Below are positions 40,435-60,686 of a stretch of DNA of 64,000 bases, piece after piece (the stretch's first letter is position 1; the number at the start of each line of letters is the position of its first letter). Source of the DNA: a bacterium. Its GTDB lineage: Bacteria > CAYTYR01 > UBA6262. The translations under genes and the position numbers were made by a program. The notes beneath the pieces are model-generated. The model worked only from the letters and a program-made list of their open reading frames with translations, was not told the origin of the DNA and ran no database searches. The DNA lies in assembly GCA_028712895.1 (NCBI GenBank), contig JAQTPL010000006.1:239-64238 (forward strand). Reading direction: 5' to 3'.

Positions 40435-40521
40435 GTCCTCGAGTCTTCGAGTCTGGCTTAAATATTATAATTAAAACAATTCTTTGGACCCGCGGACTCG
40501 TGACCCGGGACCCGCAGACTG
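40435..40521. repeat. Intercistronic word hairpin (GTCNNCGA / GACCCG words) between the two transketolase genes
   Basis: Left arm GTCCTCGA GTCTTCGA GTCTGG (40435-40456); AT-rich centre AATATTATAATTAAAAC; right arm GGACCCGC GGACTCGT GACCCGG GACCCGC AGACTG (40486-40521) abutting the tktN stop. CGAGTC/GACTCG and GGTC/GACC pair. Confidence 0.65.
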
Positions 40522-41331: not shown

Positions 41332-41354
41332 AATAACCCCCTAAAATACAATCA

Positions 41355-41442
41355 GTTTTAAGTTTTGAGTTATAAGTGTTGAGTTATGGTTAAGATCTTC
41401 TATAATATGCTTACCTTAATTCAAAACTCAAAATTCAAATTT
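41355..41442. repeat. Intercistronic heptad-word hairpin, GTTTTGA family (copy 1)
   Basis: Left arm GTTTTAA GTTTTGA GTTATAA GTGTTGA GTTATGG; right arm CCTTAATTCAAAACTCAAAATTCAAATTT. The loop carries TATAATATGCTTACCTTAA, which is also conserved in 60590-60686. Confidence 0.75.
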
Positions 41443-41448
41443 ACCTGT

Positions 41449-41490
41449 CCCCGCGTCTTTGATTTGTCCCGTAGGGCAAATCAGCAGGGG
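41449..41490 (-). terminator. GC-rich hairpin after the response-regulator gene (terminator-like, no clear U-run)
   Basis: CCCCGCGTCTTTGATTTGTCCC GTA GGGCAAATCAGCAGGGG: inner GATTTG(T)CCC/GGGCAAATC and outer CCCCGC/GC(A)GGGG pairing. Confidence 0.35.
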
Positions 41491-41503
41491 ATAACTGCTT
41501 TTC

Positions 41504-41869
41504 TTAGCCCAGGATCTTCTTCACGCGATCCATTAATTCCTGCGGATGAAAAGGCTTGACGATATAATCCATCGCCCCTAATTCCAGGCTTTTAGCGACA
41601 TCACCTTCCTGCCCGAGCGCGCTTAACATAACCACGGGTATCTGCCTGGTGCTTTCATTTTCCTTTAATCTTCTGGTGGCCTCATTACCATCGATCACCG
41701 GCATCATGATATCCATCAAAATGAGATCTGGGTTTTCCTGGATCGCCAGTTTAACCCCTGCTTCTCCTTCATTAGCGCTGACTACGGTGAAAGCGTTCTT
41801 CTCCAGCAAATACCGCACCATTTTTACCACGCCAGGTTCATCATCAACGATCAAAACCTTTTTGCTCAT
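41504..41869 (-). CDS. Stand-alone receiver-domain response regulator (CheY-like)
   Basis: 121 aa. KVLIVDDEP...PDLILMDIMMPVIDG...VVMLSA...YIVKPF. Confidence 0.9.
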   Translation of the reverse strand: MSKKVLIVDDEPGVVKMVRYLLEKNAFTVVSANEGEAGVKLAIQENPDLILMDIMMPVIDGNEATRRLKENESTRQIPVVMLSALGQEGDVAKSLELGAMDYIVKPFHPQELMDRVKKILG

Positions 41870-41887
41870 AATCTCACTCCTGTTTAT

Positions 41888-43894
41888 TTAGTTTTTTGGC
41901 AAAGTGAAAATGAATTTTGCCCCATTTCTGTTTCTTTTATCCCAGCTGAAAACCTCTTTATCCATAACCGGGCTTTCAACCCAGATCTTACCCCCGTGCA
42001 ACTCAACCAGCAGCTTGGAGATGGCCAAACCCAAGCCTGTCCCTATCACATGTTCAGCTTTGGCTTTAGCGGACCGGTAAAAACGGCCAAACATGTAGGG
42101 CAAGTCTTTCTCTTCTATACCGTAACCATTATCGATCACCTGCACTTCCAGGAATTTCCCAGTGTCTTTAAAGCCTATGATCACTTCTCCCTGATCAGGA
42201 GTATACTTAATGGCGTTGGTCAGTAAGTTAGTCAGGATTTGGGTCAGCTGGTTCTCATCAGCCAGGATAGCAGCCAATGGTTCTGCCGGAGGCAGGACAG
42301 TTACCCGTAATTTTTTCTCAATGATGGCCAGGCGCAGATTATGCAAAACCCCATGCACTGTTTTTTCAAGGTCCAACGGCGCTTTTTTCAATTCCACTTT
42401 GCCGGCTTCTATTTTAGACAGGTTTAATAAATTATTTATCAAATCTACCAGGCGTCTGGTATTCTGGCTAATGATCTCCATGAATTCTTTCTGGGTGGCA
42501 TTCAAAACCCCGGGTTCGCCCTGCACCAGCAGGTCGGTAAACCCCAGGATACTGGTCAATGGCGAACGCATTTCATGGCTGACCATGGCGATGAAGTCAC
42601 TTTTTGCCTGGCTTAACTCTACTAATTTCTCATTAGCCTTTTTTAAATGTTCATTAGCCCGGGCCAGATCACCGGTAGCAATATTGACCTTTTCTTCCAG
42701 GTTTTTGCTGAATTGCTGCGTCTGCTCATAAAGTTGCGCATTCTGCAGCACTACGGCCAACTGCCGGGCAAAAGCCATCAGGAAGTCAACCCTGTCCGGT
42801 GGGAAAGCTGCCCGGTTACTTGAGTTGATATTTAATACTCCTAATTTGCGGTCACCGATCAGGAGCGGGATATTGACCATAACCGCAATTTTTTCCTGGC
42901 TTAAAAGAGCGGCCAGGCTACTTTCAGCCTGATTAAAATCACGGATCACTAAGGGTTCATTATACAGCAGAGCTTTTTGCGCCATGTCTTCCAATAAGAC
43001 AATGCCGTTAGCATTGACAAAAGCAGTGGATAAGCCTTGGGTGCTGCGCATTTTAAAAAGCCCATCATCACCAACCAGGAAAATACTGCATGAAGACCCT
43101 TGCAGTTTCTCTATACTCATAGCCATGACCAGGTCAATGATCAAGGTAATATCCAAAGCCGCGGTCACCGCCCGCGACATTTCGAATAATAAGGTCAACT
43201 GTTGCTGGTTTTCCTCAACCTGGGAAATCATCTGGTTAAACTGCGCCGCCAGATACCCCAACTCATCATTTCCTAATTTTTCTACCCGGGTAGACAGGTC
43301 ACCGTTCTGTACCCGGCGCATAGCCTGCAATATTTTCCCGATACGGTTAAAGATCATCTGCTCGGAAACAATGAACATCACCAGGCCCAGCAATATGATC
43401 CCCAGGATAACGACCAGGAAGAGCACTTGTTTGACACTAGTCGTTAGCTCATCAGCTACCCGGTTAAGAGAATACCAGATCTTAATCGTTCCGGTGCGCT
43501 CGCTTTTATAATATATTGGGATCTGTACTTCTAGGGCCCCGTTAAAATTCTCATCTTTTTTATTGCTATGGATAATCGGTTTATTTTTTACATCGGAGAG
43601 CAGAATATAGAGAACATCCTTATCACTGCTGATCTCCTGTACATAGCGTTTAAGAATAGCCATATCTGATTCTTTAATTCCCTGGCGACTGACCTTAGCC
43701 AGGAAACTGGCATAATTCTTGCTTTTTTTACTGATATCGTCAGTGACTACCTGCCTGACCTGGTTGACCATAATAAACCCGATCAACATCATCAGTGGTA
43801 TTAAAACCAGCATCAAGGCAGCGACAAACTTAAAGCCCAGGGTAAACCTGATTTTTGACCTAACCTTTATATTCGTTTCATTATGCATGATCAC
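41888..43894 (-). CDS. Sensor histidine kinase (2 TM + HAMP + GAF + HisKA + HATPase)
   Basis: 668 aa. HAMP (RRVQNGDLSTRVE), GAF-like middle, H-box MVSHEMRSPLTSI, N/G boxes NLLTNAIKYTP, DNGYGIE, GTGLGLAISK. Confidence 0.9.
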   Translation of the reverse strand: MIMHNETNIKVRSKIRFTLGFKFVAALMLVLIPLMMLIGFIMVNQVRQVVTDDISKKSKNYASFLAKVSRQGIKESDMAILKRYVQEISSDKDVLYILLSDVKNKPIIHSNKKDENFNGALEVQIPIYYKSERTGTIKIWYSLNRVADELTTSVKQVLFLVVILGIILLGLVMFIVSEQMIFNRIGKILQAMRRVQNGDLSTRVEKLGNDELGYLAAQFNQMISQVEENQQQLTLLFEMSRAVTAALDITLIIDLVMAMSIEKLQGSSCSIFLVGDDGLFKMRSTQGLSTAFVNANGIVLLEDMAQKALLYNEPLVIRDFNQAESSLAALLSQEKIAVMVNIPLLIGDRKLGVLNINSSNRAAFPPDRVDFLMAFARQLAVVLQNAQLYEQTQQFSKNLEEKVNIATGDLARANEHLKKANEKLVELSQAKSDFIAMVSHEMRSPLTSILGFTDLLVQGEPGVLNATQKEFMEIISQNTRRLVDLINNLLNLSKIEAGKVELKKAPLDLEKTVHGVLHNLRLAIIEKKLRVTVLPPAEPLAAILADENQLTQILTNLLTNAIKYTPDQGEVIIGFKDTGKFLEVQVIDNGYGIEEKDLPYMFGRFYRSAKAKAEHVIGTGLGLAISKLLVELHGGKIWVESPVMDKEVFSWDKRNRNGAKFIFTLPKN

Positions 43895-44687
43895 CTTGAC
43901 TATAACCCTGATAATTCCAGGAAGCCTGGGTATATTTCCCCGCCGCTAATCGCCGGGCCAGCAGCAGCTCTGCCGCAGACAAATTGCCGGGCACAAAGTT
44001 GAGCTGTAACTCTGAGGCAAAACTTTGCTGGAAAACAGTACTGATCTCGGCTAAACTTATTTTTTGCTGCAGTACTTCTTCCAGGCCAGCGGCTTGCTGC
44101 CAGAAAACTGGCTCTCCCGCAGTGCGTAAAATCAAAGACCCCTGCTGGAGAATGATATCACGATAACGGCGCTGGGCACTACCACAAACTTTTTTACCGT
44201 TAATAAGCAGGTCATACTTGGTCGGATTATTGAAACAGAAAAAGTGATTATCTTTCCCCGCAAAAACACTTTCTGTGAGATTGACTTGGACGCCCAGGGC
44301 TAACAAGGCTTTTTGAATACAGGTAGCGATCACCCGGAAATATTCAACAGCTTGGTGCCGGTCCCGCAAGTCCTGGCGGCTGAAAATCACGCTAAAGGTA
44401 AATTCCTGATCGTGCAGCACAAACCCGCCGCCAGTAGGCCGGCGGATAAGTTCAATATTGTTTTGGCCGCATAAATCAGCCAAGGCCTGGTCAATACGCT
44501 GGAAATATCCCAGACTGATAGTCCGTCTTTGCCAGGAATATATCCGGAGCGTGGAAAGACTGTCTCCCTTTACACGCTGGTGCAAGATAGCTTCATCCAC
44601 AGCCATATTCCAAGCGCCATCCTGCGGCTCATCTACTAATAATCGCCATACTTTTTTATTCGTGTAATTAGCTGGCATTAGAGTCAT
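43881..44687 (-). CDS. Lipoate-protein ligase/octanoyltransferase family protein (LplA/LipM-like)
   Basis: 268 aa. NMAVDEAIL...LRIYSWQRRTISLGYFQ...RRPTGGGFVLHD...GKKVCGSAQRR (BPL_LplA_LipB pattern). Lies adjacent to the gcv genes. Confidence 0.85.
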   Translation of the reverse strand: MTLMPANYTNKKVWRLLVDEPQDGAWNMAVDEAILHQRVKGDSLSTLRIYSWQRRTISLGYFQRIDQALADLCGQNNIELIRRPTGGGFVLHDQEFTFSVIFSRQDLRDRHQAVEYFRVIATCIQKALLALGVQVNLTESVFAGKDNHFFCFNNPTKYDLLINGKKVCGSAQRRYRDIILQQGSLILRTAGEPVFWQQAAGLEEVLQQKISLAEISTVFQQSFASELQLNFVPGNLSAAELLLARRLAAGKYTQASWNYQGYSQGDHA

Positions 44688-44692
44688 TCGTG

Positions 44693-46528
44693 TTATTTCT
44701 TTAAAAAGGCAAAATCGAGTACCATGTTCAAGTATTTGTATTGCTTGGGTACGCTTTCAAAGGAGATGTATTGCATGGGTATTTTTTCTTTATCGAATAC
44801 ACTATGGATAGAACGGACAAATTCTCCTTCGATCAAATTATTAGATGGCGGCGGCCCCATCCAGATTACCAGATCAATTCCCTGGCTGCGGCACAAATCT
44901 ACCATTTCGCTAAAATTCAGGTTTGAACTAGGAGCATAAGTCTGGGCAAAAGTTTTATCCAATTTGAATTTGATCTTATGTTTTTTAATGGTCTCGGCAA
45001 AATTCTTGATCATCTGGTCAAGTTCTTTGTCCTTACCGGTAGGATAAATATATCCGGTCCGCAAATTATGGGCATCGTCTCCCCTCCCCGCTGCCGCCGG
45101 CTGTGGAGGAGCCTGTTCTGAAGCAGGTAGCGGTTCCGGCGCAGGAGCTGGCTCTGACTCTATTATAGGCGGTGGTTCCGGCTCTGTTACCGGAGGTTCA
45201 TAGGCTGGTATTTCCGGTTCAACTACCTGTTCCGCTGGTTGTTCAGGAGCAGCGGGAGCTGCCTCAGATGCGCTCACGATCTCCACCGGCTGGGTCGGCT
45301 CAAAAATAATCTCTGTTTTCTCTTCAATGATCTGGGTTAAGCTCTCTTCCAGTGGTGCTAGGGTACTCATTTCTATGCCCGTAGTTTCTTCCGGCAGCAA
45401 GTCTTGCAGTAACTCTTCGGCTAAAGACTTGTTTATTTGCCGGTTAGTCAAAGAAGCGTAAGCCACGATACGGATCAGGAATCCTTCCAATTCGCGGATA
45501 TTTGATTTTAACTGTTCGGCGATAAAATACATTACTTCATCTTCAATCTGTACTTTGGTGCTGTCCGCTTTTGCTTTCAGGATCGCCACCCTGGTTTCCA
45601 AATTCGGCGACTGGATATCGGTGATCAAACCCCATTCAAAACGGGAGCGTAACCGCTCTTCCAATACGGAAATTTTCTTCGGCGGCTTGTCGCTGGCAAT
45701 AACAATCTGTTTATGGTCATCATAAAGAGCATTGAATGTATGATAAAACTCTTCTTGGGCGGCTTCAGCCTCGGATAAAAACTGCACATCATCGATCAGC
45801 AAAACATCTATTTTGCGGTATTTATTCCTGAACTCTATTATTTTGCCGTAACGGATCGCGTCTATTACTTCAGCCATAAACCGTTCAGCAGTAGTGTACA
45901 GTACCTTTGCCGTAGAATCATTTTCCAGCACAAAATGGCCAATGGCCTGCATCAAATGGGTCTTCCCTAATCCGACATCTCCGTACATAAACAGCGGATT
46001 ATATACCTTGCCCGGCATCTCGGCCACGGCCAAAGCAGCAGCCTTGGCAAAGTGATTGCTTTTCCCGACTACAAAAGTATCAAAGGTATAGCGCGGGTTT
46101 AAGCCTATTTCAGAAAACAAAGCTAGTTTCTGTTCTTCGGTCAATACTGGTTTGGTCGCTGTTTCAGCAATGGGAGAAGCAGCAATGGGAGCTGTTCCGG
46201 TAATCTCCCTGTTTATATCTTCATCAATTAAATTGTTTTCCTCTACCGGCGGTAAATATTTGGAAAAATCAAAATTGTCCGGACTTTCCTTAAAATCCTT
46301 CACTATCTCATATATTTTCTCCCGATCATCAACTTCCAGCTGATAGATATAAAATGACCAGTTGTAATCCTTCTCCCGCAAAGAGGTAGTCCTGCCGCAA
46401 CTGTAATTAAGCTTGGTTAGTACATTAGATAATTTAATGCCATCTTCCCTGTCGCCTTGCAGGACTATTTTCCAGCGGCTAGGATAATCAGCAGTAAAGC
46501 TTTCGACAAGGTCCCATTTTGTAATCAT
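44693..46528 (-). CDS. Chimeric protein: novel N-domain + DnaA-type AAA+ (domain III) + Pro/Glu-rich linker + novel C-domain; no DnaA domain IV
   Basis: 611 aa. [15 protein letters not shown], Walker [11 protein letters not shown], Walker [31 protein letters not shown] (DnaA domain III set). Residues ~405-480 are P/E/A-rich. Termini are homologous to ORF 51034..51966. GAGG SD lies before ATG 46528. Confidence 0.85.
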
Positions 46529-46580
46529 TTTTACCTCGCCTTTTCATAAAATTGAATTATGTTGCTGGCCATAAAAATAT

Positions 46581-48032
46581 TCATGTTAATAATGTATCCC
46601 TTCCTTTTTCATATTTTAAAATAAGCTGCCGGCCGGCACGGGCTTCATCGATCCGCCCAACCGGACTGGTCAACGGTGCTTTCTTCAACAGTTCCGGATT
46701 TTGTACTGCTTCTGCCGCAAGCTGTTCCAAGGCTTGAATAAAAGTATCCATGGTTTCCTTAGTCTCGGTTTCTGTCGGTTCTATCATCATGGCCTCATGG
46801 ACAATAAGCGGAAAATAGATCGTCGGTGGATGGAACCCGTAATCAATTATCCTCTTGGCAATATCCAGGGTACTGACTGACCAGGCCTGGTGAGGCGTCA
46901 TGACAAATTCATGCATACAGGTCCGGTGATAAGGAACCGGATAAAACTTTGCCAATTTATGCATTAAATAATTGGCGTTCAGCACGGCCTGACGCCCGAC
47001 CTTGGCTATGCCCTCTGCCCCCAGGGCCAAAAAATAAGCATACGCCCGGACCGCAATCAGGAAATTGCCATAAAAAGAGCGGACTTTGCCGATACTGTTG
47101 GCTTGCCGATACTCCCAAAAATAATTTTTCCCTTTTTTTATAACCTGTGGTACCGGTAAAAACGGGATAAGGTCTTTACTTGTGCCCACTGCTCCGGCAC
47201 CTGGCCCGCCACCGCCATGCGGAGTGGAAAATGTCTTGTGCAGGTTGAAATGCATTACATCAAAACCCAGTTCTGCAGGCTTGACCAATCCTAACAAAGC
47301 ATTAAAGTTCGCGCCGTCGCCATATAATAATGCCCCATTTTTATGGACCAGGTGGCTTATCTCAAGAATATTTTTTTCAAACAATCCCAAAGTATTCGGA
47401 TTTGTTAACATCAACGCGGCAACATCCAGGCCCAGATTCTGCTGCAAATCCTCAAGGTCAATATCACCTTGATTGTCACTCTTCACTTGCCTGACCTGGT
47501 ACCCGGCTAAAGCCGCCGTAGCCGGATTCGTGCCATGAGCGGTATCCGGGACAAGTATCACGTTTCGCTTTTGTTCCGGTTGGTTCTTCTGGTGATATGC
47601 TTTGATGAGCAAAATACCGGTTATTTCCCCATGCGCTCCGGCGGCGGGCTGCAAAGTCATCCCTGAAAATCCGCTGACTTCTTTTAGAAAACTCTCTAGC
47701 TCATAGATTATTTTCAAGGCGCCTTGTACACATTCTTCGGGAGAATAGGGATGGATCCCGGCCAAGCCATCAAAATCAGCTACTGTTTCATTTACCTTAG
47801 GATTATACTTCATAGTGCATGAACCTAAAGGATAAAAACCATTGTCTACGCTATAATTCAATTTGGAGAGAGCCGTAAAATGCCTGATTACATCTTGCTC
47901 ACAGGTTTGAGGTAAAGTTACTTCTTCTGCTCCTAAAAATTCGGCCGGTATATGTTTATTCACCGCTGCCGGATCGGCAGCAGGCACATAACTTGTTGGC
48001 TGTGAATGGTATTCAAAAATCACTTTTTCCAA
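46581..48032 (-). CDS. gcvPB: Glycine dehydrogenase (decarboxylating) subunit 2
   Basis: 483 aa, TTG start behind AGAGG. PLP-lysine region NLHKTFSTPHGGGGPG is typical of GcvPB. Confidence 0.95.
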   Translation of the reverse strand: MEKVIFEYHSQPTSYVPAADPAAVNKHIPAEFLGAEEVTLPQTCEQDVIRHFTALSKLNYSVDNGFYPLGSCTMKYNPKVNETVADFDGLAGIHPYSPEECVQGALKIIYELESFLKEVSGFSGMTLQPAAGAHGEITGILLIKAYHQKNQPEQKRNVILVPDTAHGTNPATAALAGYQVRQVKSDNQGDIDLEDLQQNLGLDVAALMLTNPNTLGLFEKNILEISHLVHKNGALLYGDGANFNALLGLVKPAELGFDVMHFNLHKTFSTPHGGGGPGAGAVGTSKDLIPFLPVPQVIKKGKNYFWEYRQANSIGKVRSFYGNFLIAVRAYAYFLALGAEGIAKVGRQAVLNANYLMHKLAKFYPVPYHRTCMHEFVMTPHQAWSVSTLDIAKRIIDYGFHPPTIYFPLIVHEAMMIEPTETETKETMDTFIQALEQLAAEAVQNPELLKKAPLTSPVGRIDEARAGRQLILKYEKGRDTLLT

Positions 48033-48050
48033 TTAAATAACCTCTTTAAT

Positions 48051-48085
48051 TAGCGTATAGCGTATAGCGTGTAGCGTATAGCGTA
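48051..48085. repeat. One-armed tandem heptamer array (TAGCGTA)x5 between gcvPA and gcvPB
   Basis: TAGCGTA TAGCGTA TAGCGTG TAGCGTA TAGCGTA (+TAGG) in exact 7-nt phase with one substitution. On the mRNA strand this is (UAUACGC)n, ending 5 nt before the AGAGG SD of gcvPB. No inverted partner nearby. Confidence 0.85.
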
Positions 48086-48095
48086 TAGGAAAACA

Positions 48096-49436
48096 CTAAT
48101 TCTTTTCTTTTAAGATACGGACCAGGGTGTCGATCTCGGCTTTGGTTCTTTTTTCAGTGACGCAGAATAATAATGACTTTTTAAGTTCCGGATAATATTT
48201 TTTCAACGGTAAACCGCCGATTATATTTTTTCTTAACAGCTTTTTATTCAAGGCCTCTATATTCCCGGGCGCTGTGGCTACAAATTCATTAAAAAAAGCA
48301 GTTTTAAAATTAATTTTCCAGCCTGGTATCCTGGCTACAGCAGCAGCCAGATAATGGGCTCCGGACAAAGAGGCAGTAGCCACATCTTTTAAGCCGGCAG
48401 CACCCATAGAGGAGAGATAAACACAAGCACTTAACGCGCATAAAGCCTCATTGGAACAGATATTACTGGTAGCTCGTTCACGGGGGATATGCTGTTCCCT
48501 GGTCTGTAAGGTCAGCACATAAGCACGTTGTCCCCTGTTGTCAATACTTTCTCCTACTATCCGTCCAGGCATTTTGCGCATGAATTCCTGGCGGCAGGCA
48601 AAAATTCCCAAGTACGGCCCGCCAAAAGAAACCGGTAGTCCCAATGATTGCCCTTCACCCGTAACGATATCAGCGCCGTATTCTGCCGGTTTTTGTAAAA
48701 CACCCAGGCTAACCGGGTAAATGCTGGTGACAAACAAGGCTCCCTGCTTATGGGCCATGGCCCCCAGCTGCTGGACATGTTCCAGGCAGCCGAAAAAATT
48801 CGGCTGCTGCACAACAACAGCTGCCACCTGGTCATTTAACTGGCTTTTCAAGGCAGCCAGGTCGATCAGACCTTCAATAAAAGGTATTTCCTTAATGCTA
48901 ATCCGTGAATTTTTTAAATATGTATGCACTACCTGGCGGTATTCCGGGTGAATGGCCTTAGCCACCAGGACTATATTCCTCTGGGTATGCTCACAAGCCA
49001 GGTGAATTGCCTCATAAAGCGCCGTGGCGCCATCATAGAGGCTGGCATTAGCTACGTCCATCCCGGTCAGGTTACAGATCATCGTCTGGTATTCAAAGAT
49101 CGATTGCAAGGTGCCTTGGCTTATTTCCGGCTGATAAGGAGTATACGCAGTATAAAATTCCCCCCGTTTGGTAATCACCGGTACAGTGCTGGGAATATAA
49201 TGATCATAAGCACCTGCACCTAAAAAACAGCTAAAGTCGGCTACACTGGCGTTTTGACCGGCTACTTCCCGTAGCTGCTTTTTAACTTCCAACTCACTGC
49301 CAGCAGGTGGTAACGCTAAACAGTGGCGAATGATCTTATCTTGCGGAATATCCTTCAAAAGATCTTCTGTTGAAGCTATGCCTAACGCCTGCAACATATC
49401 CTTATTATCAGCATCGGTATTGCCTATATAGTCCAT
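48096..49436 (-). CDS. gcvPA: Glycine dehydrogenase (decarboxylating) subunit 1
   Basis: 446 aa. FLGAGAYDHYIP...YTPYQPEISQG.LQ..FE.Q pattern of GcvPA. Confidence 0.95.
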   Translation of the reverse strand: MDYIGNTDADNKDMLQALGIASTEDLLKDIPQDKIIRHCLALPPAGSELEVKKQLREVAGQNASVADFSCFLGAGAYDHYIPSTVPVITKRGEFYTAYTPYQPEISQGTLQSIFEYQTMICNLTGMDVANASLYDGATALYEAIHLACEHTQRNIVLVAKAIHPEYRQVVHTYLKNSRISIKEIPFIEGLIDLAALKSQLNDQVAAVVVQQPNFFGCLEHVQQLGAMAHKQGALFVTSIYPVSLGVLQKPAEYGADIVTGEGQSLGLPVSFGGPYLGIFACRQEFMRKMPGRIVGESIDNRGQRAYVLTLQTREQHIPRERATSNICSNEALCALSACVYLSSMGAAGLKDVATASLSGAHYLAAAVARIPGWKINFKTAFFNEFVATAPGNIEALNKKLLRKNIIGGLPLKKYYPELKKSLLFCVTEKRTKAEIDTLVRILKEKN

Positions 49437-49438
49437 AA

Positions 49439-49828
49439 CTACTTAGATCCCTCACTGATTAACTTTTCATATTCTTCCGCGGACAGCAAGCTAGATAATT
49501 CCGTGGGAGCAGCTAAAGCTATTTTAATCATCCAGCCGTTAGTGTATGGTTCTTTATTGACCAATTCAGGCTGCTTGCCCAAAGCCTCATTGACACTGAC
49601 CACCATACCGCTGACCGGACTGAACAGATCACTGACCGCTTTTACGCTTTCAGCCACGCCAAAAGATTCTTGCTGTTTCAATTGTCGTTCTACCTTGGGT
49701 AATTCAACAAAGACGATGTCTCCCAGTTCTTCCTGGGCATAATCAGTAATGCCGATTACTATTGTATTATTGCCCACCGCTTTTACCCATTCATGGGATT
49801 TGCTGTATTTCAAGTCCTTTGGAACCAT
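49439..49828 (-). CDS. gcvH: Glycine cleavage system H protein
   Basis: 129 aa. Lipoyl-lysine context VAESVKAVSDLFSPVSG, N-terminal Y.KSHEWV. Confidence 0.95.
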   Translation of the reverse strand: MVPKDLKYSKSHEWVKAVGNNTIVIGITDYAQEELGDIVFVELPKVERQLKQQESFGVAESVKAVSDLFSPVSGMVVSVNEALGKQPELVNKEPYTNGWMIKIALAAPTELSSLLSAEEYEKLISEGSK

Positions 49829-49844
49829 TAAAACCTCCGGTATT

Positions 49845-49930
49845 AGCTTATTGCTCTTAGCTCATAGGTCGTAGGAAAATCTACTGATTTCTTTTTTTTC
49901 CTGCGAGCTACCAGCTACGAGCTACGAACT
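49845..49930. repeat. Intercistronic heptad-word hairpin, AGCTC family (copy 2)
   Basis: 31-nt arms 49845-49875 (AGCTTAT TGCTCTT AGCTCAT AGGTCGT AGG) and 49900-49930 (..GAGCTAC CAGCTAC GAGCTAC GAACT). 22 Watson-Crick + 2 G.U of 31 by hand. The 24-nt loop carries a T-run. Fills the gcvT-gcvH spacer. Confidence 0.75.
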
Positions 49931-49936
49931 GATTTA

Positions 49937-51037
49937 TTAGTCGCGAACATGGCTGGGGACAAAAGGCGTTTTTACTATTGTTGCCGGATATTTTTCTCCC
50001 CTGATCTCGATATTCAGCTTATTATCTAATGCAGCTTCAGCTAATCTGATATATCCCAGGCAAATACTTTTAGCCAAGGTTGGGGAAAATGTCCCGCTGG
50101 TAACCTGACCTACTATCTTCCCGTCTTGGTTAAAGATATGGAATCCATGGCGAGCGATCTGCCGGCCTTGCATGGTCAGACCAGCCAGCTTGCGTGATAG
50201 CCCGGCCTTTTTTATTTGTTCCAGGCTGGTCTTGCCAATAAAATTATCCTTCTCCAATTTTACTGCCCAGTCCAACCCAGCTTTTAGCGGATTAGTATCC
50301 TGGTCAATATCATTTCCGTACAGGGAATATTTCATTTCCAACCGCAAAATATCCCTGGCTCCCAAACCACAGGGGATGGCTCCCTGGTCAATAATGCTTT
50401 GCCAGATTTTTTCTGTATCTGGCTCCGGTTCAGGCTGGGCAAAATAAAATATTTCATAGCCTAGCTCTCCGGTATATCCGGTACGGGAAATAGTCACTGG
50501 CTTGCCGGCGACCTGCCCCTTAGCAAAATGCAAATAATCCAAAACGGCAATCTCTGGCCCGGCCAGTTTGACCATGATATCCCTGGCGCCAGGACCCTGC
50601 AGCGAAATCAGTGAAGTGCTTTCGGAAATATCATTCAACATCACATCATAAAAACTTTTTTGTTCCATCAGGTACTGGTAATCTTTTTCTGTATTCGCGG
50701 CATTTACCACCAATAGATAATTATGCCGGCTGATCTTATTAATGAACAAGTCGTCCACAATGCCGCCGTGATCATAACACATGAGACTGTAAAGACAATC
50801 TCCCGGCGCCATTACTGACACATCATTGGTCATTACCTGCTGCAGAAATTTTTCCGCCTGGTCACCGATAACGGTGATCTCTCCCATATGACAAATATCA
50901 AAGAGACCGGCTTTTTTCCGTACTGCCCAATACTCATCGATAATACTGCTATATTGCACCGGCATCAACCACCCGCCAAACTCAATCAAGCGGGCTTTAT
51001 GCTGCTGGTGCCAATGATAAAGTTTAGTTTGTTTCAA
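49937..51037 (-). CDS. gcvT: Aminomethyltransferase (glycine cleavage T protein)
   Basis: 366 aa. GGWLMPVQY, AGLFDICHMG, ISRTGYTGELGYEI motifs. Confidence 0.95.
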   Translation of the reverse strand: MKQTKLYHWHQQHKARLIEFGGWLMPVQYSSIIDEYWAVRKKAGLFDICHMGEITVIGDQAEKFLQQVMTNDVSVMAPGDCLYSLMCYDHGGIVDDLFINKISRHNYLLVVNAANTEKDYQYLMEQKSFYDVMLNDISESTSLISLQGPGARDIMVKLAGPEIAVLDYLHFAKGQVAGKPVTISRTGYTGELGYEIFYFAQPEPEPDTEKIWQSIIDQGAIPCGLGARDILRLEMKYSLYGNDIDQDTNPLKAGLDWAVKLEKDNFIGKTSLEQIKKAGLSRKLAGLTMQGRQIARHGFHIFNQDGKIVGQVTSGTFSPTLAKSICLGYIRLAEAALDNKLNIEIRGEKYPATIVKTPFVPSHVRD

Positions 51038-51966
51038 TCCTGGAAATCCCCGATCCCCCGCCCTTTGAATAAGGCGATATCAACGACCACGCTGACAAAT
51101 GTGGTTCTTAAGGCCATTTTACTGAGCGCGATCGCTTTGATCAGCACTTTCCGTTTCTTAGGCATTTTTTTAAGTAACGCCGCCAGGTTTCTAGCCTCAG
51201 GGAAAACCTGGTAATTGGGAATAAAAATCAAAAACGCTTCAATATTAAATCCCTGGTAAATTTCTACCAGATTGGCCAGATCCAACTGGGCCCTGAGAGG
51301 ATAGTTATCATCAAAAACATTTTCCAGGCTGAAAGGATGATGTTTCACTGTTTTTAAAACATCCGTTAATCCGGCGAGAAAAAGGCGGGCATTTTCCTGT
51401 TCTCCTTCGGGATATAAAATGCCAACTTTGACTTCATCTTCCTTCGGCACCAGTAACTCTTCCGGCAAATCTTTTTCCTTTTTCAGATACATCGGCTGGA
51501 TCCGGCCGACTTCCAGGGGAATCGGTTCCTCAGTCTCCTGGCCGGGCATCCTGATATCCCCGGGCAAAACAACATTCTTATGCTTGAGCGCTTCTTTGGC
51601 TTCAGCTTTACTGATCCCGCGATCGGATAAATCCTTGATCACCCCGCCAATTTCCCGGGCCAGGTTATCAGCTCTTTCCGGTGCGCCTGTTTTCTTTTTT
51701 GCCTCTGGTAATTCCTGGGCGTCAGCCACGGAAAGCCGCTTCATGAATTTTTCTACTTCCAACCGGGTTTCTTTACTGGACGTATTCAGATAAAAACCCC
51801 AATTATAATCGCCGCGAGCAGCTTTGAGTTGAAAAGGAGGCTGACAAACTTTCTCAAATTTTCCCACCACCCTAAGAACATCTTCACGATCCCCATTAAT
51901 CGATACCAGGTAGCGGTCCTGGTGTTTGTCGTCAAAATAAGATTCTATTTTCCAGCGGATAATCAT
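51034..51966 (-). CDS. Uncharacterised protein, paralogue of the N- and C-terminal domains of the DnaA-like chimera
   Basis: 310 aa. N-terminus MIIRWKIESYF..RYLVSINGDREDVLRV...GDYNWGFYL aligns with [27 protein letters not shown]...KDYNWSFYI. The C-terminal ~120 aa also align. Start overlaps the pilT stop (TAATG); stop overlaps the gcvT start (ATGA). Confidence 0.75.
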   Translation of the reverse strand: MIIRWKIESYFDDKHQDRYLVSINGDREDVLRVVGKFEKVCQPPFQLKAARGDYNWGFYLNTSSKETRLEVEKFMKRLSVADAQELPEAKKKTGAPERADNLAREIGGVIKDLSDRGISKAEAKEALKHKNVVLPGDIRMPGQETEEPIPLEVGRIQPMYLKKEKDLPEELLVPKEDEVKVGILYPEGEQENARLFLAGLTDVLKTVKHHPFSLENVFDDNYPLRAQLDLANLVEIYQGFNIEAFLIFIPNYQVFPEARNLAALLKKMPKKRKVLIKAIALSKMALRTTFVSVVVDIALFKGRGIGDFQD

Positions 51967-53075
51967 TATTTATCCCTCTTGCTTTGGTTATTATTTTCAT
52001 CAACTCCGGTGTAAATACCCCGAACGCTCAACATGAGTTCATCCGGATTAGTAGCATTATCCAGAGCATCTTCCAGGGAGATCTTCCCTTCTTTGTACAA
52101 ATTTAAAAGCGACAGATCAAATGATTGCATGCCGTAAAAAGCTCCCTGTTGCATAGCGGTATAAATACCGGCATCCTTGCCTTCGGCAATCAATTTTCTG
52201 ACAAAAGGGGTAACTGTCAGGATCTCGATGGCCGGGATCCGGCCTTCCTGATCGACCCGCGGGATCAGACGCTGCGCAATAATACCACGCAGGATCTGGC
52301 TGAGCGTCATTCTGATCTGGGTTTGCTGATGCGGAGAATACATATCAACAATACGGTTGACGGTATGGACAGCATCGATAGTGTGAACCGTGGAAATAAC
52401 CAAGTGCCCGGTTTCTCCCCCCATAATAGCGGCATTGACTGTTTCAAAATCTCTCATTTCCCCGATCACGATGACATCCGGGTCCTGGCGCAAGACATGT
52501 TTCAGCGCCTGGCCGAAAGACTTGGTATCGCTGCCCACTTCCCGCTGGCTGACCGTGCTCATTTTATCATTATGATAAAACTCAACGGGATCCTCGATCG
52601 TAATAATATTAGAGCGGCGGGTGGAATTAATAAAATCGATCATAGTGTTTAGGGTAGTAGTTTTACCGGCACCGGTAATCCCGGCAATCAAAATAAGACC
52701 GCGGTTATGGCTGGTTATTTTACGCATCGTTTCGCTGGGCAGGTTTAATTCTTCAAAGGTTTTAGGCGAGGGAGGAATAACCCGCAAACTTAACGCGATC
52801 CCGCCTTTTTGCCGGTATAAGTTGACCCGAAAACGAGATACTCCCTCTACTTCGTAGCCAAGGTCTAGTTCATCATCTTTCTCGAATTTTTTTTGTTGTT
52901 TCTCATTCATCAGGTTATAGGCCAGCTGTTCGATATTCTCGCTGGTTAAAGGACTGGATTCAGCAGCCATTAGTTTACCATTAAACCGCAGCATAGGAGG
53001 ACTGCCTGCTTTGAAGTGAATATCTGAGATACTGCGTTTGACCATCAGTTGCAAGAGATCGTCAACATTCATCAT
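51966..53075 (-). CDS. pilT: PilT-family type IV pilus retraction ATPase
   Basis: 369 aa. GLILIAGITGAGKTTT (Walker A), IITIEDPVEF, DPDVIVIGEMRD (Walker B/Asp box), GHLVISTVHT (His box). Confidence 0.9.
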   Translation of the reverse strand: MMNVDDLLQLMVKRSISDIHFKAGSPPMLRFNGKLMAAESSPLTSENIEQLAYNLMNEKQQKKFEKDDELDLGYEVEGVSRFRVNLYRQKGGIALSLRVIPPSPKTFEELNLPSETMRKITSHNRGLILIAGITGAGKTTTLNTMIDFINSTRRSNIITIEDPVEFYHNDKMSTVSQREVGSDTKSFGQALKHVLRQDPDVIVIGEMRDFETVNAAIMGGETGHLVISTVHTIDAVHTVNRIVDMYSPHQQTQIRMTLSQILRGIIAQRLIPRVDQEGRIPAIEILTVTPFVRKLIAEGKDAGIYTAMQQGAFYGMQSFDLSLLNLYKEGKISLEDALDNATNPDELMLSVRGIYTGVDENNNQSKRDK

Positions 53076-53088
53076 AAACCCCTTTTTT

Positions 53089-53320
53089 AGTGTGGTGTGT
53101 CTAATATATCTTTACATTTGCGGGAGCTATTTTTTTCTGATTCAAGGCGCGAGAAACGCCGCGGGCCTTCAGGCACGTAAGCGACGAGCAACACAGAAGC
53201 AGGGAAAAAGAGCCCCGCCCGGAGGGAAGGACGTCTTTGGCCGACTACTGCGTCGTTCCTCCTTGTATTCGGCTTAAATCCATTCCTTCAAATAAAAAGA
53301 TATATTAGACACGCCACACT
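53089..53320. repeat. 232-nt structured repeat element, copy 1 (candidate ncRNA or MITE-like element)
   Basis: 25-bp closing inverted repeat AGTGTGGTGTGTCTAATATATCTTT (53089-53113) / AAAGATATATTAGACACGCCACACT (53296-53320): 24 WC + 1 G.U. Internal helix 53120-53143 x 53196-53218 (19 WC + 2 G.U by hand). Helix 53221-53233 x 53251-53262 (11 WC). Core repeated at 55936-56155. Confidence 0.7.
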
Positions 53321-53321
53321 G

Positions 53322-56525: not shown

Positions 56526-57743
56526 TTACACTGTCAGGGCCAGGAAGACCTCTCTGGCCCCGTTAACGATTTCTCCGTCGAACTGGTTGTCTTTTTGGCA
56601 CTCCAGTTCTGCTAGTGCCTCCTGAATGCTTTTCATTTTTTGGTAAGGGCGCGGGCTGGTCATAGCATCAAAAGCATCGGCCACGGTTATGATTCTGGAT
56701 AAATATGGTATTTGTTGCATTTCCAGATGATCCGGATATCCCAGGCCGTTAAAATGCTCATGATGATGGCGTACTGTAGGCACCAAATTCTTAAAAACAT
56801 CTATATATTTGATAATATCTGCGGTGGTCTCAGGATGCCTTCTCACCACGGCAAACTCTTCCTCGCTCAAGGGTCCTGGCTTGTTCAGGATAGATTGCGG
56901 GATAGCCACTTTACCGGCATCATGCAATAAGCTGGCCCACTTTATACGGCTGATCTCATCATGATCAAGATGTAGAGCTTCAGCCAATAACATCGCGTAT
57001 TGAGATACCCGCTGCGAATGGCCACTGGTATAGAGATGTTTGGCATCAATAACCCTGGCAAAAACCCGTAAGGTGATACCAATAACATCGCTCTTATCCT
57101 GACATTGCAAACGGGGTAACCCCTGCTGTAATTCTACAACCGCTTCTTCCAGACATTCATCCCGGTTAATTTCCCGGCAATACTCATTATGGGCTAATAC
57201 TTCACTAAAAGCTTCATACACGGAAGAGCAGAATTCCTTGTTCTTTTGTTCACCTAACTGTTTTATGCTTTGTTCATAATCAAGCTGGGGATTATCCTGC
57301 AGACAAAAATCGTAACTATCGGCAATTCTTAAGCATTGGGCCCCGATATTTATATCCTCGTTCTGTTTTTCATGTGGGTACCCTGCTCCATCCCAACGCT
57401 CATGATGGTCCATGATAATCTCAGCCGCCAGTTCCAGGCCGGGAATTTCCTGCACAATTCTAGCGCCTTTAACCGGATGCGCAAAAATCACCGGATGGGC
57501 TCTCTGCTGGTCCAGGGATAACTGTGGTCTGATACCATTGTCAATGCTGACCGACCCGACATCATGCAGTAAGCTGGCATAAAACACCTGGTTAATATCT
57601 TCCGGGGTAATTTTCCGGGCAACTTCTGTGGCCAGCACCGCCACCCGCCAGGCATGAAAGATACGCTGATGATTTTCTAAGGCAATAATTTGCGAAAGCG
57701 CATTGATAATCTGACTGAAGGAGCTTTCCAAATTAAATTCCAC
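56526..57743 (-). CDS. Tandem HD-GYP domain protein
   Basis: ORF track to 57767 (TTG). GTG 57743 preferred (GGGAGGG SD 4 nt upstream). Two modules: LLHDVGSV...HHERWDGAGYPH and LLHDAGKVAIP...HHEHFNGLGYPD. Confidence 0.85.
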   Translation of the reverse strand: MEFNLESSFSQIINALSQIIALENHQRIFHAWRVAVLATEVARKITPEDINQVFYASLLHDVGSVSIDNGIRPQLSLDQQRAHPVIFAHPVKGARIVQEIPGLELAAEIIMDHHERWDGAGYPHEKQNEDINIGAQCLRIADSYDFCLQDNPQLDYEQSIKQLGEQKNKEFCSSVYEAFSEVLAHNEYCREINRDECLEEAVVELQQGLPRLQCQDKSDVIGITLRVFARVIDAKHLYTSGHSQRVSQYAMLLAEALHLDHDEISRIKWASLLHDAGKVAIPQSILNKPGPLSEEEFAVVRRHPETTADIIKYIDVFKNLVPTVRHHHEHFNGLGYPDHLEMQQIPYLSRIITVADAFDAMTSPRPYQKMKSIQEALAELECQKDNQFDGEIVNGAREVFLALTV

Positions 57744-57797
57744 GATACCCTCCCTTTTTAGGAACAACTACTTAATTTTATTTATTCTTTATAAATT

Positions 57798-58778: not shown

Positions 58779-58849
58779 GTCGTGGTTCATCGTTCGTAGT
58801 TATAGATATGTGCTTTTACGACCAACCACGAACGACTAACTACTAACGG
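58779..58849. repeat. Heptad-word hairpin overlapping the DUF1844 stop codon
   Basis: Left arm GTCGTGG TTCATCG TTCGTAG TTATAG; right arm ACGACCA ACCACGA ACGACTA ACTACTA ACGG. Perfect 8-bp core TCGTTCGT (58790-58797) / ACGAACGA (58828-58835). A separate 9-bp hairpin CCCGCCAAT/ATTGGCGGG lies at 58760-58779. Confidence 0.6.
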
Positions 58850-60589: not shown

Positions 60590-60686
60590 AGTTTTGAGTT
60601 ATAAGTTATGAGTGTTGAGTTGTGGTCAAAATCTTTCCATAATATATTTACCTTAACTCAAAACTCAAAATTCAAAACTTAAAACT
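60590..60686. repeat. Intercistronic heptad-word hairpin, GTTTTGA family (copy 2)
   Basis: Left arm AGTTTTG AGTTATA AGTTATG AGTGTTG AGTTGTG against right arm 60651-60686: 27 WC + 3 G.U of 35 by hand. The loop carries CATAATATATTTACCTTAA. Fills the hisG-gltX spacer. Confidence 0.75.

What the first reader, a model, noticed from the sequence alone, without database searches (positions are those of the whole stretch)
41504..53075. Ten-gene co-directional array joins pilT, the paralogue pair, gcvT-H-PA-PB, a lipoate ligase and a GAF histidine kinase/response regulator
Minus-strand junctions, read from coordinates: pilT/X overlap 1 nt; X/gcvT overlap 4 nt. The gcvT-gcvH spacer is 108 nt and filled by a hairpin. 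The gcvH-gcvPA gap is 2 nt. The gcvPA-gcvPB spacer is 63 nt and carries the heptamer array. The gcvPB to DnaA-like gap is 52 nt, and DnaA-like to lplA-like is 5 nt. lplA-like and HK overlap by 14 nt, HK to RR is 18 nt, and a GC-rich hairpin follows at 41449-41490. gcv + lipoate ligase is a logical pairing because H-protein needs lipoylation. A retraction ATPase, a DnaA-type ATPase and a two-component system in the same tight array are not explained by glycine-cleavage biochemistry. pilT is also separated from the only other pilus genes in the window (pilP-like/pilQ, ~30 kb away).
Basis: partly seen in the sequence, partly recalled or inferred. Interest (0 to 1): 0.6.

Follow-up and report, generated by a model that had tools for sequence, protein, structure and literature searches.

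The report
DnaA–MID operon split by gcv genes
The ten-gene array is real but is a mosaic: in one Elusimicrobiota lineage an ordinary glycine-cleavage operon and a lipoate ligase were inserted into a phylum-wide pilT–X–X'–kinase–regulator operon, whose central protein is an undescribed fusion of the DnaA replication-initiator ATPase with an Argonaute-type MID domain.

Summary
Co-directionality is not special, because 37 consecutive genes (23.6–64 kb) share that strand.

Comparison with 74 Elusimicrobiota loci resolves the odd mixture.
- The phylum-wide order is tpiA-rpiB-deoC-pilT-(0–2 X)-X'-HK-(RR)-tkt-deoB-PNP-deoA.
- pilT/X' and X'/HK often overlap by 1–4 nt.
- Only the window's monophyletic clade carries gcvT-H-PA-PB between X and X', and lplA between X' and HK. 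The gcv and lplA genes are the insertions.

The more interesting object is X'.
- X' (611 aa) has a DnaA domain III about 60% identical to canonical DnaA, with all ATPase motifs intact.
- It lacks DnaA domains I and IV.
- X has the same two end domains without the ATPase.
- Public records name X' "DnaA".

The function of X' is not shown. It could be an accessory DnaA paralogue that handles nucleic acid, linked to PilT and to deoxynucleoside catabolism. It could instead be the lineage's only initiator. I could not test whether a canonical DnaA coexists in these genomes.

The parts
51966..53075 (-). pilT: PilT/PilU-family type IV pilus retraction ATPase, first gene of the array
   Evidence: TIGR01420 444 bits (cutoff 319) and PF00437. 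Found immediately upstream of X/X' in 40 of 52 Elusimicrobiota loci.
51034..51966 (-). X: 310-aa protein made of the N-domain (1-80), a conserved helical middle segment (about 100-126) and a MID-like C-domain (178-301). It is X' without the ATPase.
49937..51037 (-). gcvT aminomethyltransferase (lineage-specific insertion)
   Evidence: NF001567 432 bits. Present at this position only in the window's clade.
49829..49936 (-). gcvT-gcvH spacer holding a hairpin built from heptamer repeats
   Evidence: RNA fold -31.2 kcal/mol, z -3.55. TRF finds period 7. Relatives have the same kind of hairpin with different heptamers, or no spacer at all.
49439..49828 (-). gcvH, the lipoyl-carrier H protein
   Evidence: NF002270 176 bits. 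Lipoyl-lysine motif ESVKA, K63.
48096..49436 (-). gcvPA, glycine dehydrogenase subunit 1
   Evidence: NF001696 642 bits.
48033..48095 (-). gcvPA-gcvPB spacer with a CTATACG heptamer array (5.4 copies) and the ribosome-binding site of gcvPB
   Evidence: TRF score 69. Not a hairpin. The array is shared by the closest relatives and absent at 69% X' identity, where the gap is 1 nt.
46581..48032 (-). gcvPB, glycine dehydrogenase subunit 2
   Evidence: NF003346 704 bits.
44693..46528 (-). X': 611-aa protein. N-domain (1-90), disordered linker, DnaA domain III AAA+ (about 130-378), P/E-rich disordered linker (379-485), MID-like C-domain (488-610).
43881..44687 (-). lplA-like: a lipoate/octanoate protein ligase-transferase with the catalytic domain only (lineage-specific insertion)
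   Evidence: PF21948 114.5 bits; below every NCBIfam equivalog cutoff. Found between X' and HK only in the gcv-containing clade.
41888..43894 (-). Membrane sensor histidine kinase (2 TM, HAMP, GAF, HisKA with H440, HATPase)
   Evidence: An HK is the first gene after X' in 32 of 66 loci (plus 9 where it follows lplA), often with a -4 or -1 nt overlap.
41504..41869 (-). Single-domain (CheY/DivK-like) response regulator
   Evidence: PF00072 108.8 bits, no output domain.
41441..41494 (-). GC-rich hairpin downstream of RR, at the 3' boundary of the array in this species
   Evidence: -21.5 kcal/mol, z -3.2. No T-tract. Lies in the 172-nt spacer before tktN.
53076..53321 (-). 246-nt deoC-pilT spacer holding a unit bounded by 37-nt inverted repeats and a terminator-like hairpin, at the 5' boundary of the array in this species
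   Evidence: Relatives have a 1-nt deoC-pilT gap.

Best explanation
The array is a mosaic of two unrelated units in a genome where nearly every gene faces the same way.

**Unit 1, ancient and phylum-wide in Elusimicrobiota: pilT-(X)-X'-HK-RR**
- It sits inside a block of pentose and deoxynucleoside catabolic genes: tpiA-rpiB-deoC upstream, and tktN-tktC-deoB-PNP-deoA downstream.

**Unit 2, acquired in the window's clade: gcvT-H-PA-PB plus a catalytic-domain-only lipoate/octanoate ligase**
- The gcv genes were inserted between X and X'. The ligase was inserted between X' and HK.
- This unit does ordinary glycine cleavage with its own H-protein lipoylation. Nothing requires a functional link to unit 1.

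**Shown for X'**
- It is a DnaA-family AAA+ ATPase with every DnaA catalytic and oligomerisation motif intact.
- Domain I is replaced by a new beta-beta-alpha-beta-beta-alpha N-domain.
- The DnaA-box-binding domain IV is replaced, after a roughly 100-residue disordered linker, by an Argonaute-type MID domain.
- X is the same protein without the ATPase.

**Inferred mechanism (low confidence)**
- X' forms ATP-dependent DnaA-type oligomers on DNA.
- Its MID domain anchors a 5'-phosphate nucleic-acid end, or binds a nucleotide.
- X shares both end domains, so it either competes with X' for the same partners or bridges to them.
- The HK-RR pair tunes the module.
- The conserved neighbours are PilT and the deo genes. 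My preferred role is therefore handling of DNA taken up by pilus retraction and fed into deoxynucleoside catabolism, by a DnaA paralogue that is not the oriC initiator.
For: **Mosaic structure**
- Close relatives (X' 91-46% identical) keep the ten-gene order.
- Distant Elusimicrobiota have pilT-X-X' directly adjacent, followed by HK-RR-tkt or by proS-rimP-nusA-infB.
- pilT is upstream of X' in 40 of 52 loci. gcv lies between X and X' in 8 of 52.
- The gcv-bearing loci are monophyletic in an X' AAA+ tree.
- pilT/X' gaps of -4 to 23 nt occur in 5 loci, and X'/HK overlaps of -4 or -1 nt in at least 16 loci.
- The deo/pentose block flanks the module across the phylum.
- In the window, 37 consecutive genes are on the minus strand.

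**X' anatomy**
- Domain composition.
- Domains I and IV are absent from the window and from all 81 loci.
- The X' AAA+ domain is 58-64% identical to canonical DnaA.

**MID homology rests on three independent lines**
- Foldseek on the same model: TM 0.70 to the target, E 5e-4.
- Sequence HMMs: six PADLOC pAgo models hit X' C-domains at their MID positions, in up to 9 of 20 family members, best E 9e-7.

**Distribution of the C-domain**
- It occurs in only 99 cluster representatives out of 1.84 billion proteins.
- It is always C-terminal, and its only Pfam partner is Bac_DnaA.
Against: - Insertion rather than loss elsewhere rests on parsimony and on a rough NJ tree of one domain.
- Two insertions flanking the same gene is slightly awkward. 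One insertion followed by a local swap is equally possible.
- The functional part is inference from neighbourhood and fold only.
- No nuclease, ComEC or DprA was seen next to the module.
- One subgroup keeps X' without pilT (tpiA-rpiB-X'-RR-RR-tkt).
- In a compact, strand-biased genome, conserved synteny and overlapping codons can persist without shared function.
- The X' ATPase is as conserved as orthologous DnaAs are between phyla. That fits a true initiator better than a neofunctionalised paralogue.
- I could not test whether a canonical DnaA coexists in these genomes.
- MID pocket residues were compared by eye only, not by superposition.
Confidence: 0.72

Rival explanations
1. X' is the genuine and only replication initiator of these bacteria. 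In this reading a DnaA has exchanged domain I and the DnaA-box-binding domain IV for new modules, and the MID-like domain provides origin or partner recognition. Its neighbours would then be conserved synteny without functional meaning.
For: - The AAA+ domain is 64% identical to an unrelated phylum's canonical DnaA. That is more than two canonical DnaAs from different phyla share with each other (62%).
- It is 60% identical to B. subtilis DnaA domain III.
- Walker A/B, box VII and box VIII are invariant even in the most divergent lineages.
- TIGR00362 is passed at 373 bits against a cutoff of 344, so public pipelines already name it DnaA.
- It appears as a single copy in a fixed place across the phylum.
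- None of the named proteins among the 120 best hits is a domain-IV-bearing DnaA labelled Elusimicrobia.
Against: - X' is never next to dnaN, recF or gyrB.
- It always lies in the middle of a long co-directional block, with no GC-skew or strand switch nearby.
- In many lineages it overlaps its neighbours, which leaves no room for an adjacent origin.
- A survey places the Elusimicrobia dciA gene in or beside the usual dnaA-dnaN-recF-gyrB context (PMC5109545). This hints that a conventional replication locus exists elsewhere.
- No cultured Elusimicrobia genome was hit by the C-domain pattern scan. This is weak evidence, because the scan depends on exact patterns.
Confidence: 0.25
2. All ten genes form one functional operon. 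X and X' would couple glycine cleavage or one-carbon supply to pilus retraction or replication.
For: - Junctions inside the array are tighter (median 5 nt) than around it (55 nt).
- The array is bounded by the two largest local spacers.
- The order is kept down to 41-46% identity within the clade.
- No sigma-70-like promoter or T-tract terminator stands out in the internal spacers.
Against: - gcv and lplA are absent from this position in 44 of 52 informative loci, while pilT-X-X'-HK persists.
- The internal spacers and their heptamer hairpins differ between close species.
- The boundary spacers are species-specific. Relatives have deoC-pilT 1 nt apart and RR-tktN 24 nt apart.
- Co-transcription after an insertion does not imply shared function.
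Confidence: 0.08
3. X' is an accessory DnaA paralogue that regulates replication initiation. It could co-oligomerise with or cap canonical DnaA filaments, read nucleotide-pool status through the MID-like domain, and take input from the HK-RR pair. X would act as its ATPase-less antagonist.
For: - All DnaA-DnaA interface motifs are preserved. That is what a protein entering mixed DnaA filaments would need.
- MID domains bind nucleoside monophosphates; hAgo2 MID-nucleotide structures are among the hits.
- The module is embedded among nucleoside-salvage and catabolic genes.
- An HK is translationally coupled to X' in at least 16 lineages.
Against: - Known DnaA regulators of this kind (Hda/HdaA) are far more diverged. 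TIGR03420 scores only 113 bits against a cutoff of 195, and X' has no clamp-binding motif.
- This reading does not explain the conserved pilT adjacency.
- There is no direct evidence for it.
Confidence: 0.25
4. The module is an Argonaute-related anti-phage or anti-plasmid defence system.
For: - The C-domain is homologous to the pAgo MID domain, and the hits are to PADLOC defence models.
- It is paired with an NTPase.
Against: - There is no PIWI, APAZ, TIR, SIR2 or nuclease effector.
- X has no PADLOC hit.
- The locus is fixed, vertically inherited and phylum-wide among housekeeping genes. This is the opposite of a defence island.
- GC content is uniform across the region.
Confidence: 0.04

Closest known systems
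Canonical bacterial DnaA (TIGR00362 / PF11638 + PF00308 + PF08299)
   Same: - Walker A/B, box VII (RLRSRFEWG) and box VIII (NIRELEG) are intact.
- A flexible linker separates the N-terminal domain from the ATPase, as in DnaA.
   Different: - No domain I (PF11638) and no domain IV (PF08299, the DnaA-box helix-turn-helix).
- In their place are a new N-domain and, after a roughly 100-residue disordered linker, a MID-like alpha/beta domain.
- The gene is not beside dnaN or at a strand switch.
- It has an ATPase-less paralogue (X) next door.
Hda / HdaA (DnaA-related regulators lacking domain IV)
   Same: DnaA-family AAA+ proteins without the DNA-binding domain IV.
   Different: - Hda is about 230 aa, AAA+ only, strongly diverged from DnaA, and has an N-terminal clamp-binding motif.
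- X' scores below the Hda cutoff (113 bits against 195), has no such motif, and carries two extra domains.
Argonaute/PIWI MID domain (eukaryotic Ago/Piwi, long and short prokaryotic Argonautes)
   Same: - Weak but repeated sequence-profile similarity to six pAgo models at their MID positions.
   Different: - No PIWI domain follows; the domain ends the protein.
- No PAZ, N or APAZ partner.
- Fused to, or encoded beside, a DnaA ATPase.
- Conservation of the 5'-phosphate pocket (Y/K/Q/K) is not established.
gcvT-gcvH-gcvPA-gcvPB operons with a lipoyl ligase or octanoyltransferase (split P protein, as in Firmicutes and Thermus)
   Same: - T, H, P-alpha and P-beta all score above equivalog cutoffs.
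- H carries the lipoyl-lysine.
- A LplA/LipM-type catalytic-domain protein is nearby.
   Different: - No glycine riboswitch (Rfam finds none).
- No L protein in the array.
- The operon is interrupted by X' before the ligase.
PilT/PilU retraction ATPases encoded apart from pilus assembly genes
   Same: Full-length PilT-family match (444 bits), encoded away from the secretin gene, as is usual for pilT.
   Different: Conserved translational coupling to a DnaA-family and MID-domain gene. To my knowledge this is not described for other phyla (recalled knowledge, not tested).

Membership tests
DnaA replication initiator | AAA+ domain III with DnaA-specific boxes (Walker A/B, box VII arginines, box VIII) | tested here: met
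   [not shown]
DnaA replication initiator | C-terminal domain IV (PF08299) that binds DnaA boxes | tested here: not met
   No PF08299 in X' or in any of the 86 listed family members. tblastn with a canonical domain IV finds nothing in the window or in the 81 loci. The C-terminus is a MID-like alpha/beta domain.
DnaA replication initiator | N-terminal domain I (PF11638) | tested here: not met
   No PF11638 even at E up to 10. tblastn with a canonical domain I is negative. The predicted N-domain has beta-beta-alpha-beta-beta-alpha order.
DnaA replication initiator | Acts at oriC; the gene is usually beside dnaN or oriC at the strand and GC-skew switch | tested here: not met
   There is no skew switch in the window. 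X' lies inside a co-directional block in all loci and is never next to dnaN, recF or gyrB. Function at an origin cannot be tested with these tools.
DnaA replication initiator | Is the only DnaA-family initiator in the genome | not testable with these tools
   Whole MAGs cannot be searched here.
Hda/HdaA | Short AAA+-only protein scoring above the Hda model, with an N-terminal clamp-binding motif | tested here: not met
   TIGR03420 113 bits against a cutoff of 195. Length is 611 aa. No QL[SP]LF-like motif.
Argonaute/PIWI proteins | MID domain fold | tested here: met
   [not shown]
Argonaute/PIWI proteins | PIWI (RNase H-like) domain following MID | tested here: not met
   Both proteins end with the MID-like domain. 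No PIWI Pfam hit. In 99 of 99 family representatives the domain is C-terminal.
Argonaute/PIWI proteins | Conserved 5'-phosphate-binding pocket (Y/H/R-K-Q-K) in MID | tested here: inconclusive
   Conserved F570, Q586, K595 and K/R598 in X', and PKKRK 269-273 and R287 in X, lie in the corresponding loops by secondary-structure order. No residue-level superposition was possible.
Glycine cleavage system | T, H (with lipoyl-lysine) and P proteins | tested here: met
   All score above NCBIfam cutoffs. ESVKA motif in H.
Glycine cleavage system | L protein (dihydrolipoyl dehydrogenase) | tested here: not met
   Not in the array. It was also absent from every window ORF I scanned, but about a dozen large ORFs in 1-13 kb were not scanned. 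It may be encoded elsewhere in the genome.
Lipoate-protein ligase A | Score above an LplA equivalog model; C-terminal accessory domain | tested here: not met
   Only the catalytic domain is present (PF21948). TIGR00545 scores 70.5 bits against a cutoff of 280. The protein is LipM/LipL-sized at 268 aa. It belongs to the LplA/LipB/LipM superfamily, and its exact activity is unresolved.
PilT retraction ATPase | Full-length match to the PilT/PilU subfamily model | tested here: met
   TIGR01420 444 bits against a cutoff of 319, covering model positions 2-343 of 343.
Single ten-gene operon | One transcript, no internal promoter or terminator | not testable with these tools
   Consensus scans show no enrichment: 29 promoter-like sites against 23 expected, and 24 terminator-like sites against 16 expected. 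This needs RNA-seq or RT-PCR.

The most novel reading that the evidence does not exclude
X' is the only DnaA-family protein in these Elusimicrobiota and is therefore their chromosomal replication initiator. That would be a bacterial lineage that has discarded the DnaA-box-binding domain IV and domain I, and that starts replication with a DnaA ATPase tethered to an Argonaute-type MID domain, assisted by an ATPase-less paralogue (X).
Probability: 0.25. Interest if true: 0.92.

Novelty: new variant of a known kind. Interest (0 to 1): 0.66.

Why it matters
- The odd gene mixture that prompted the finding has an ordinary evolutionary cause, an insertion into an older operon. That part is closed.
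- The work exposes a protein family that public pipelines label "chromosomal replication initiator protein DnaA" although it lacks the domain that defines origin recognition.
- In place of that domain it carries the first MID domain I am aware of outside an Argonaute/PIWI protein (recalled knowledge; a literature search found nothing).
- If a canonical DnaA coexists, this is a new class of DnaA paralogue. Its conserved partners (PilT, a sensor kinase, deoxynucleoside catabolism) suggest a new DNA-handling or nucleotide-sensing pathway.
- If no canonical DnaA coexists, a whole lineage initiates replication without DnaA boxes.
- Either way, DnaA (TIGR00362) counts and DnaA-based origin predictions for Elusimicrobiota genomes are at risk of error.

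Tried and rejected
- **Glycine riboswitch or other known RNA in the spacers:** Rfam at gathering threshold finds only two tRNAs in the window.
- **Promoter and terminator consensus scans:** counts are close to shuffled expectation and are not informative.
- **Pfam on the isolated domains:** searching the N-domain, the middle segment and the C-domain at E up to 10 gave nothing meaningful.
- **PDB sequence search with the C-domain profile:** no Argonaute match, only noise at E > 0.05.
- **X's middle segment as a remnant of the AAA+ lid:** the MAFFT columns are scattered across X' and are an alignment artefact. Rejected.
- **The 'Xd' genes between pilT and X' in Endomicrobia-type loci:** they match the C-domain profile only weakly, at 16-20 bits or end-to-end at about 5 bits. 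I treat them as probable but unproven X homologues.
- **Third protein-database search with the C-domain profile:** it returned only 37 short fragments and no cultured organism.
- **afdb50 fold library:** not available.
- **Literature:** there is no paper on a DnaA-MID fusion or on an Elusimicrobia DnaA lacking domain IV. The Hongoh 2008 and Herlemann 2009 genome papers are not held. There is no supplementary table for the Endomicrobium dnaA pseudogene.
- **NJ tree:** the rooting failed because one 'canonical' outgroup sequence (P0097) was in fact an X' fragment. I use only the monophyly of the gcv clade from this tree.
- **Defence-system reading:** rejected on genomic context.


Full report
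**1. Observation**

The ORF list and the Pfam and NCBIfam scans confirm ten consecutive minus-strand genes:
- pilT 51966-53075
- X 51034-51966
- gcvT 49937-51037
- gcvH 49439-49828
- gcvPA 48096-49436
- gcvPB 46581-48032
- X' 44693-46528
- an LplA/B catalytic-domain gene 43881-44687
- a HAMP-GAF histidine kinase 41888-43894
- a single-domain response regulator 41504-41869

Public gene calls for the same species choose starts a few codons later for three genes.

The spacer features are also as described:
- The gcvT-gcvH spacer folds into a strong hairpin: -31.2 kcal/mol, z -3.55.
- The post-RR hairpin is real: -21.5 kcal/mol, z -3.2.
- The gcvPA-gcvPB spacer is a 5.4-copy heptamer array that does not fold.

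GcvH has its lipoyl-lysine. A secretin gene lies about 30 kb away.

**2. Is it more than chance?**

Co-directionality is not. 37 consecutive genes from 23.6 to 64 kb are on the minus strand, and GC skew is uniformly negative.

Tightness is modestly special. The median gap is 5 nt inside the array against 55 nt outside. The array is bracketed by a 246-nt spacer and a 172-nt spacer. These boundaries are species-specific, however. In a relative with 69% X' identity, deoC and pilT are 1 nt apart and RR and tktN are 24 nt apart.

**3. The organism**

The closest homologues of X and X' come from MAGs labelled Elusimicrobia/Elusimicrobiota or unclassified 'bacterium'.

**4. Synteny resolves the mixture**

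I took loci encoding X' relatives from assemblies. I added 74 loci from a scan of one genome per species with a profile of the X' C-terminal domain. All were annotated by local BLASTP with the window's proteins.

The general Elusimicrobiota order is tpiA-rpiB-(two small genes)-deoC-pilT-(0, 1 or 2 X-type genes)-X'-HK-(RR)-tktN-tktC-deoB-(pho4-phoU)-PNP-deoA. One Endomicrobia-type group instead has X'-proS-rimP-nusA-infB.

The counts are:
- pilT precedes X' in 40 of 52 informative loci.
- An HK is the first downstream gene in 32 of 66 loci, plus 9 where lplA intervenes.
- pilT/X' gaps of -4 to 23 nt occur in 5 loci.
- X'/HK overlaps of -4 or -1 nt occur in at least 16 loci.
- Only 8 of 52 loci have gcvT-H-PA-PB between X and X'. 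The loci with lplA directly after X' (9 of 66) belong to the same gcv-bearing clade.
- These gcv-bearing loci form one clade in a tree of the X' ATPase domain.

By parsimony the glycine-cleavage operon and the ligase were inserted into an older pilT-X-X'-HK-RR operon. The 4-nt X/gcvT overlap must therefore be younger than the insertion. Tight junctions in this genome do not indicate shared function.

**5. What X' is**

X' scores 238 bits on PF00308 and 373 bits on TIGR00362, above the cutoff of 344. The TIGR00362 match covers only model positions 83-349. Neither PF11638 nor PF08299 is present in X' or in any of the 86 listed relatives. tblastn with domain I or domain IV of a canonical DnaA finds nothing in the window or in the 81 loci.

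The ATPase domain is highly conserved:
- 58-64% identical to canonical DnaAs of other phyla
- Walker A/B, box VII and box VIII invariant even in the most divergent lineages

AlphaFold2 on a 60-sequence alignment gives:
- a confident N-domain (residues 1-90, beta-beta-alpha-beta-beta-alpha)
- a disordered linker
- the AAA+ module
- a roughly 100-residue disordered P/E-rich linker
- a confident alpha/beta C-domain (residues 488-610, pLDDT 80-93)

**6. What X is**

X has the same N-domain (54.6 bits against the X' profile) and the same C-domain (43.4 bits). They are joined by a linker that contains a conserved helix, and there is no ATPase. X-type genes vary from none to two tandem copies between lineages.

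**7. The C-domain is an Argonaute-type MID domain**

- Foldseek against the PDB gives the same ranking: TM 0.70 to the target, E 5e-4.
- At the sequence level, X' C-domains hit six different prokaryotic-Argonaute HMMs of PADLOC at their MID positions. Up to 9 of 20 family members hit, with best E 9e-7.
- Pfam and PDB sequence searches see nothing.

The domain is rare. It has 99 cluster representatives among 1.84 billion proteins. It is always C-terminal, and its only Pfam partner is Bac_DnaA. No PIWI domain follows, so these proteins are not Argonautes.

**8. How it may work**

Shown:
- X' has DnaA-type ATPase chemistry and interfaces, a MID fold at the end of a long tether, and an ATPase-less paralogue.
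- pilT and a sensor kinase are conserved, often translationally coupled, neighbours.
- The module is embedded in a deoC/deoB/deoA/PNP/rpiB/tkt/tpiA block.

Inferred:
- X' oligomerises on DNA in an ATP-dependent way.
- The MID domain anchors a 5'-phosphate end or binds a nucleotide.
- X competes with X' or bridges to it through the shared end domains.
- The HK-RR pair modulates the module.

Two roles fit the data. One is a DNA-handling step that links pilus retraction (DNA uptake) to deoxynucleoside catabolism. The other is a replication-linked switch that senses the nucleotide pool. I prefer the first on neighbourhood grounds, with low confidence.

**9. The unresolved alternative**

X' may be the only DnaA of these bacteria.

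For this reading:
- Its ATPase is as conserved as orthologous DnaAs are between phyla.
- Pipelines already call it DnaA.

Against this reading:
- X' is never at a strand or skew switch and is never beside dnaN.
- A published survey places the Elusimicrobia dciA gene in or beside the usual dnaA-dnaN-recF-gyrB context (PMC5109545).
- The endosymbiont 'Ca. Endomicrobium trichonymphae' is reported to have a pseudogenised dnaA (PMC5174739 and PMC10579323). I could not determine which type of gene that is.

**10. Comparison and novelty**

The glycine-cleavage and ligase part is ordinary. It has a split P protein, no riboswitch and no L protein in the array.

The DnaA-MID architecture and its MID-only paralogue have no Pfam model for either end domain. 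I found no literature on them. X' fails the membership tests for canonical DnaA (domains I and IV), for Hda (score and motif) and for Argonaute (PIWI domain).

I rate it a new variant of a known kind: a DnaA-family ATPase with exchanged recognition modules. It deserves experimental follow-up.

Noticed in passing
window 3487-3552, 40486-40514, 41354-41439, 48051-48088, 49850-49927, 58818-58848, 60655-60686; L008 5168-5255, L010 5212-5314, L011 5157-5308, L012 4418-4508: Many intergenic spacers carry arrays of 3-5 tandem heptamers, often followed by the complementary heptamers so that a hairpin forms. In the gcvT-gcvH spacer of closely related species the same kind of hairpin is present, but it is built from a different heptamer in each species. 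More distant relatives have no spacer. Periodicity and structure are kept while the sequence is not. I have no explanation for this.
   Followed up: partly
window 53076-53321 (inverted repeats 53089-53125 and 53284-53320): The deoC-pilT spacer holds a roughly 230-bp GC-rich unit bounded by 37-nt inverted repeats (86% complementary), with a terminator-like hairpin inside. It is single-copy in the window and is found only in the window's own species (L001, L002). Relatives have deoC and pilT 1 nt apart. It could be a MITE-like insertion or a structured RNA.
   Followed up: partly
L014 9527-10393 (Elusimicrobia bacterium UBA6262, contig DJVG01000044): A 288-aa ORF joins a degraded copy of the neighbouring PP-loop ATPase gene to a 57%-identical copy of the X' linker and MID-like domain. 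It sits in an exopolysaccharide-type locus far from the main X' locus of the same MAG. It is probably a pseudogene fragment or a third paralogue.
   Followed up: partly
X' homologues in public databases (P0005, P0008, P0027, P0036, P0054, P0081 and others): Members of the X' family are named 'chromosomal replication initiator protein DnaA' by NCBI and JGI pipelines although they lack domains I and IV. X' passes the TIGR00362 cutoff on domain III alone. This can mislead marker-gene counts and origin prediction.
   Followed up: yes
L008, L011, L017, L020, L021, L024, L038, L047 (labelled Clostridia); L036 (labelled Ignavibacteria): Several MAGs that carry the Elusimicrobiota-specific X' locus in full synteny are labelled Clostridia or Ignavibacteria in their record titles. 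L008 is 96% identical to the window in the C-domain. These are probably taxonomic mislabels.
   Followed up: no
window 33031-34401, 56526-57767, 61613-63046, 25678-27171, 63082-63987; L007 6689-8035: The neighbourhood is rich in c-di-GMP and two-component signalling genes: two HD-GYP proteins, a REC-GAF-GGDEF protein and further kinases. In Endomicrobia-type loci a GGDEF gene sits directly between deoC and pilT. This could link the PilT/X' module to c-di-GMP signalling.
   Followed up: no
L050 6438-8566, L059 6273-8545, L064 6371-8592, L070 6844-9036; L026 6229-8088; L035 2277-4493: The X-type gene is highly plastic. It occurs as two tandem copies in some lineages and as single copies of 474-738 aa in others. 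It is absent where pilT abuts X' directly. The copy next to X' has the N-domain most like that of X' (66-68 bits).
   Followed up: partly
L017, L018, L024, L047 (about 8500-10400): One subgroup lacks pilT and the HK at the locus. It has tpiA-rpiB-X'-RR-RR-tktN-tktC, so X' can persist without an adjacent pilT.
   Followed up: no
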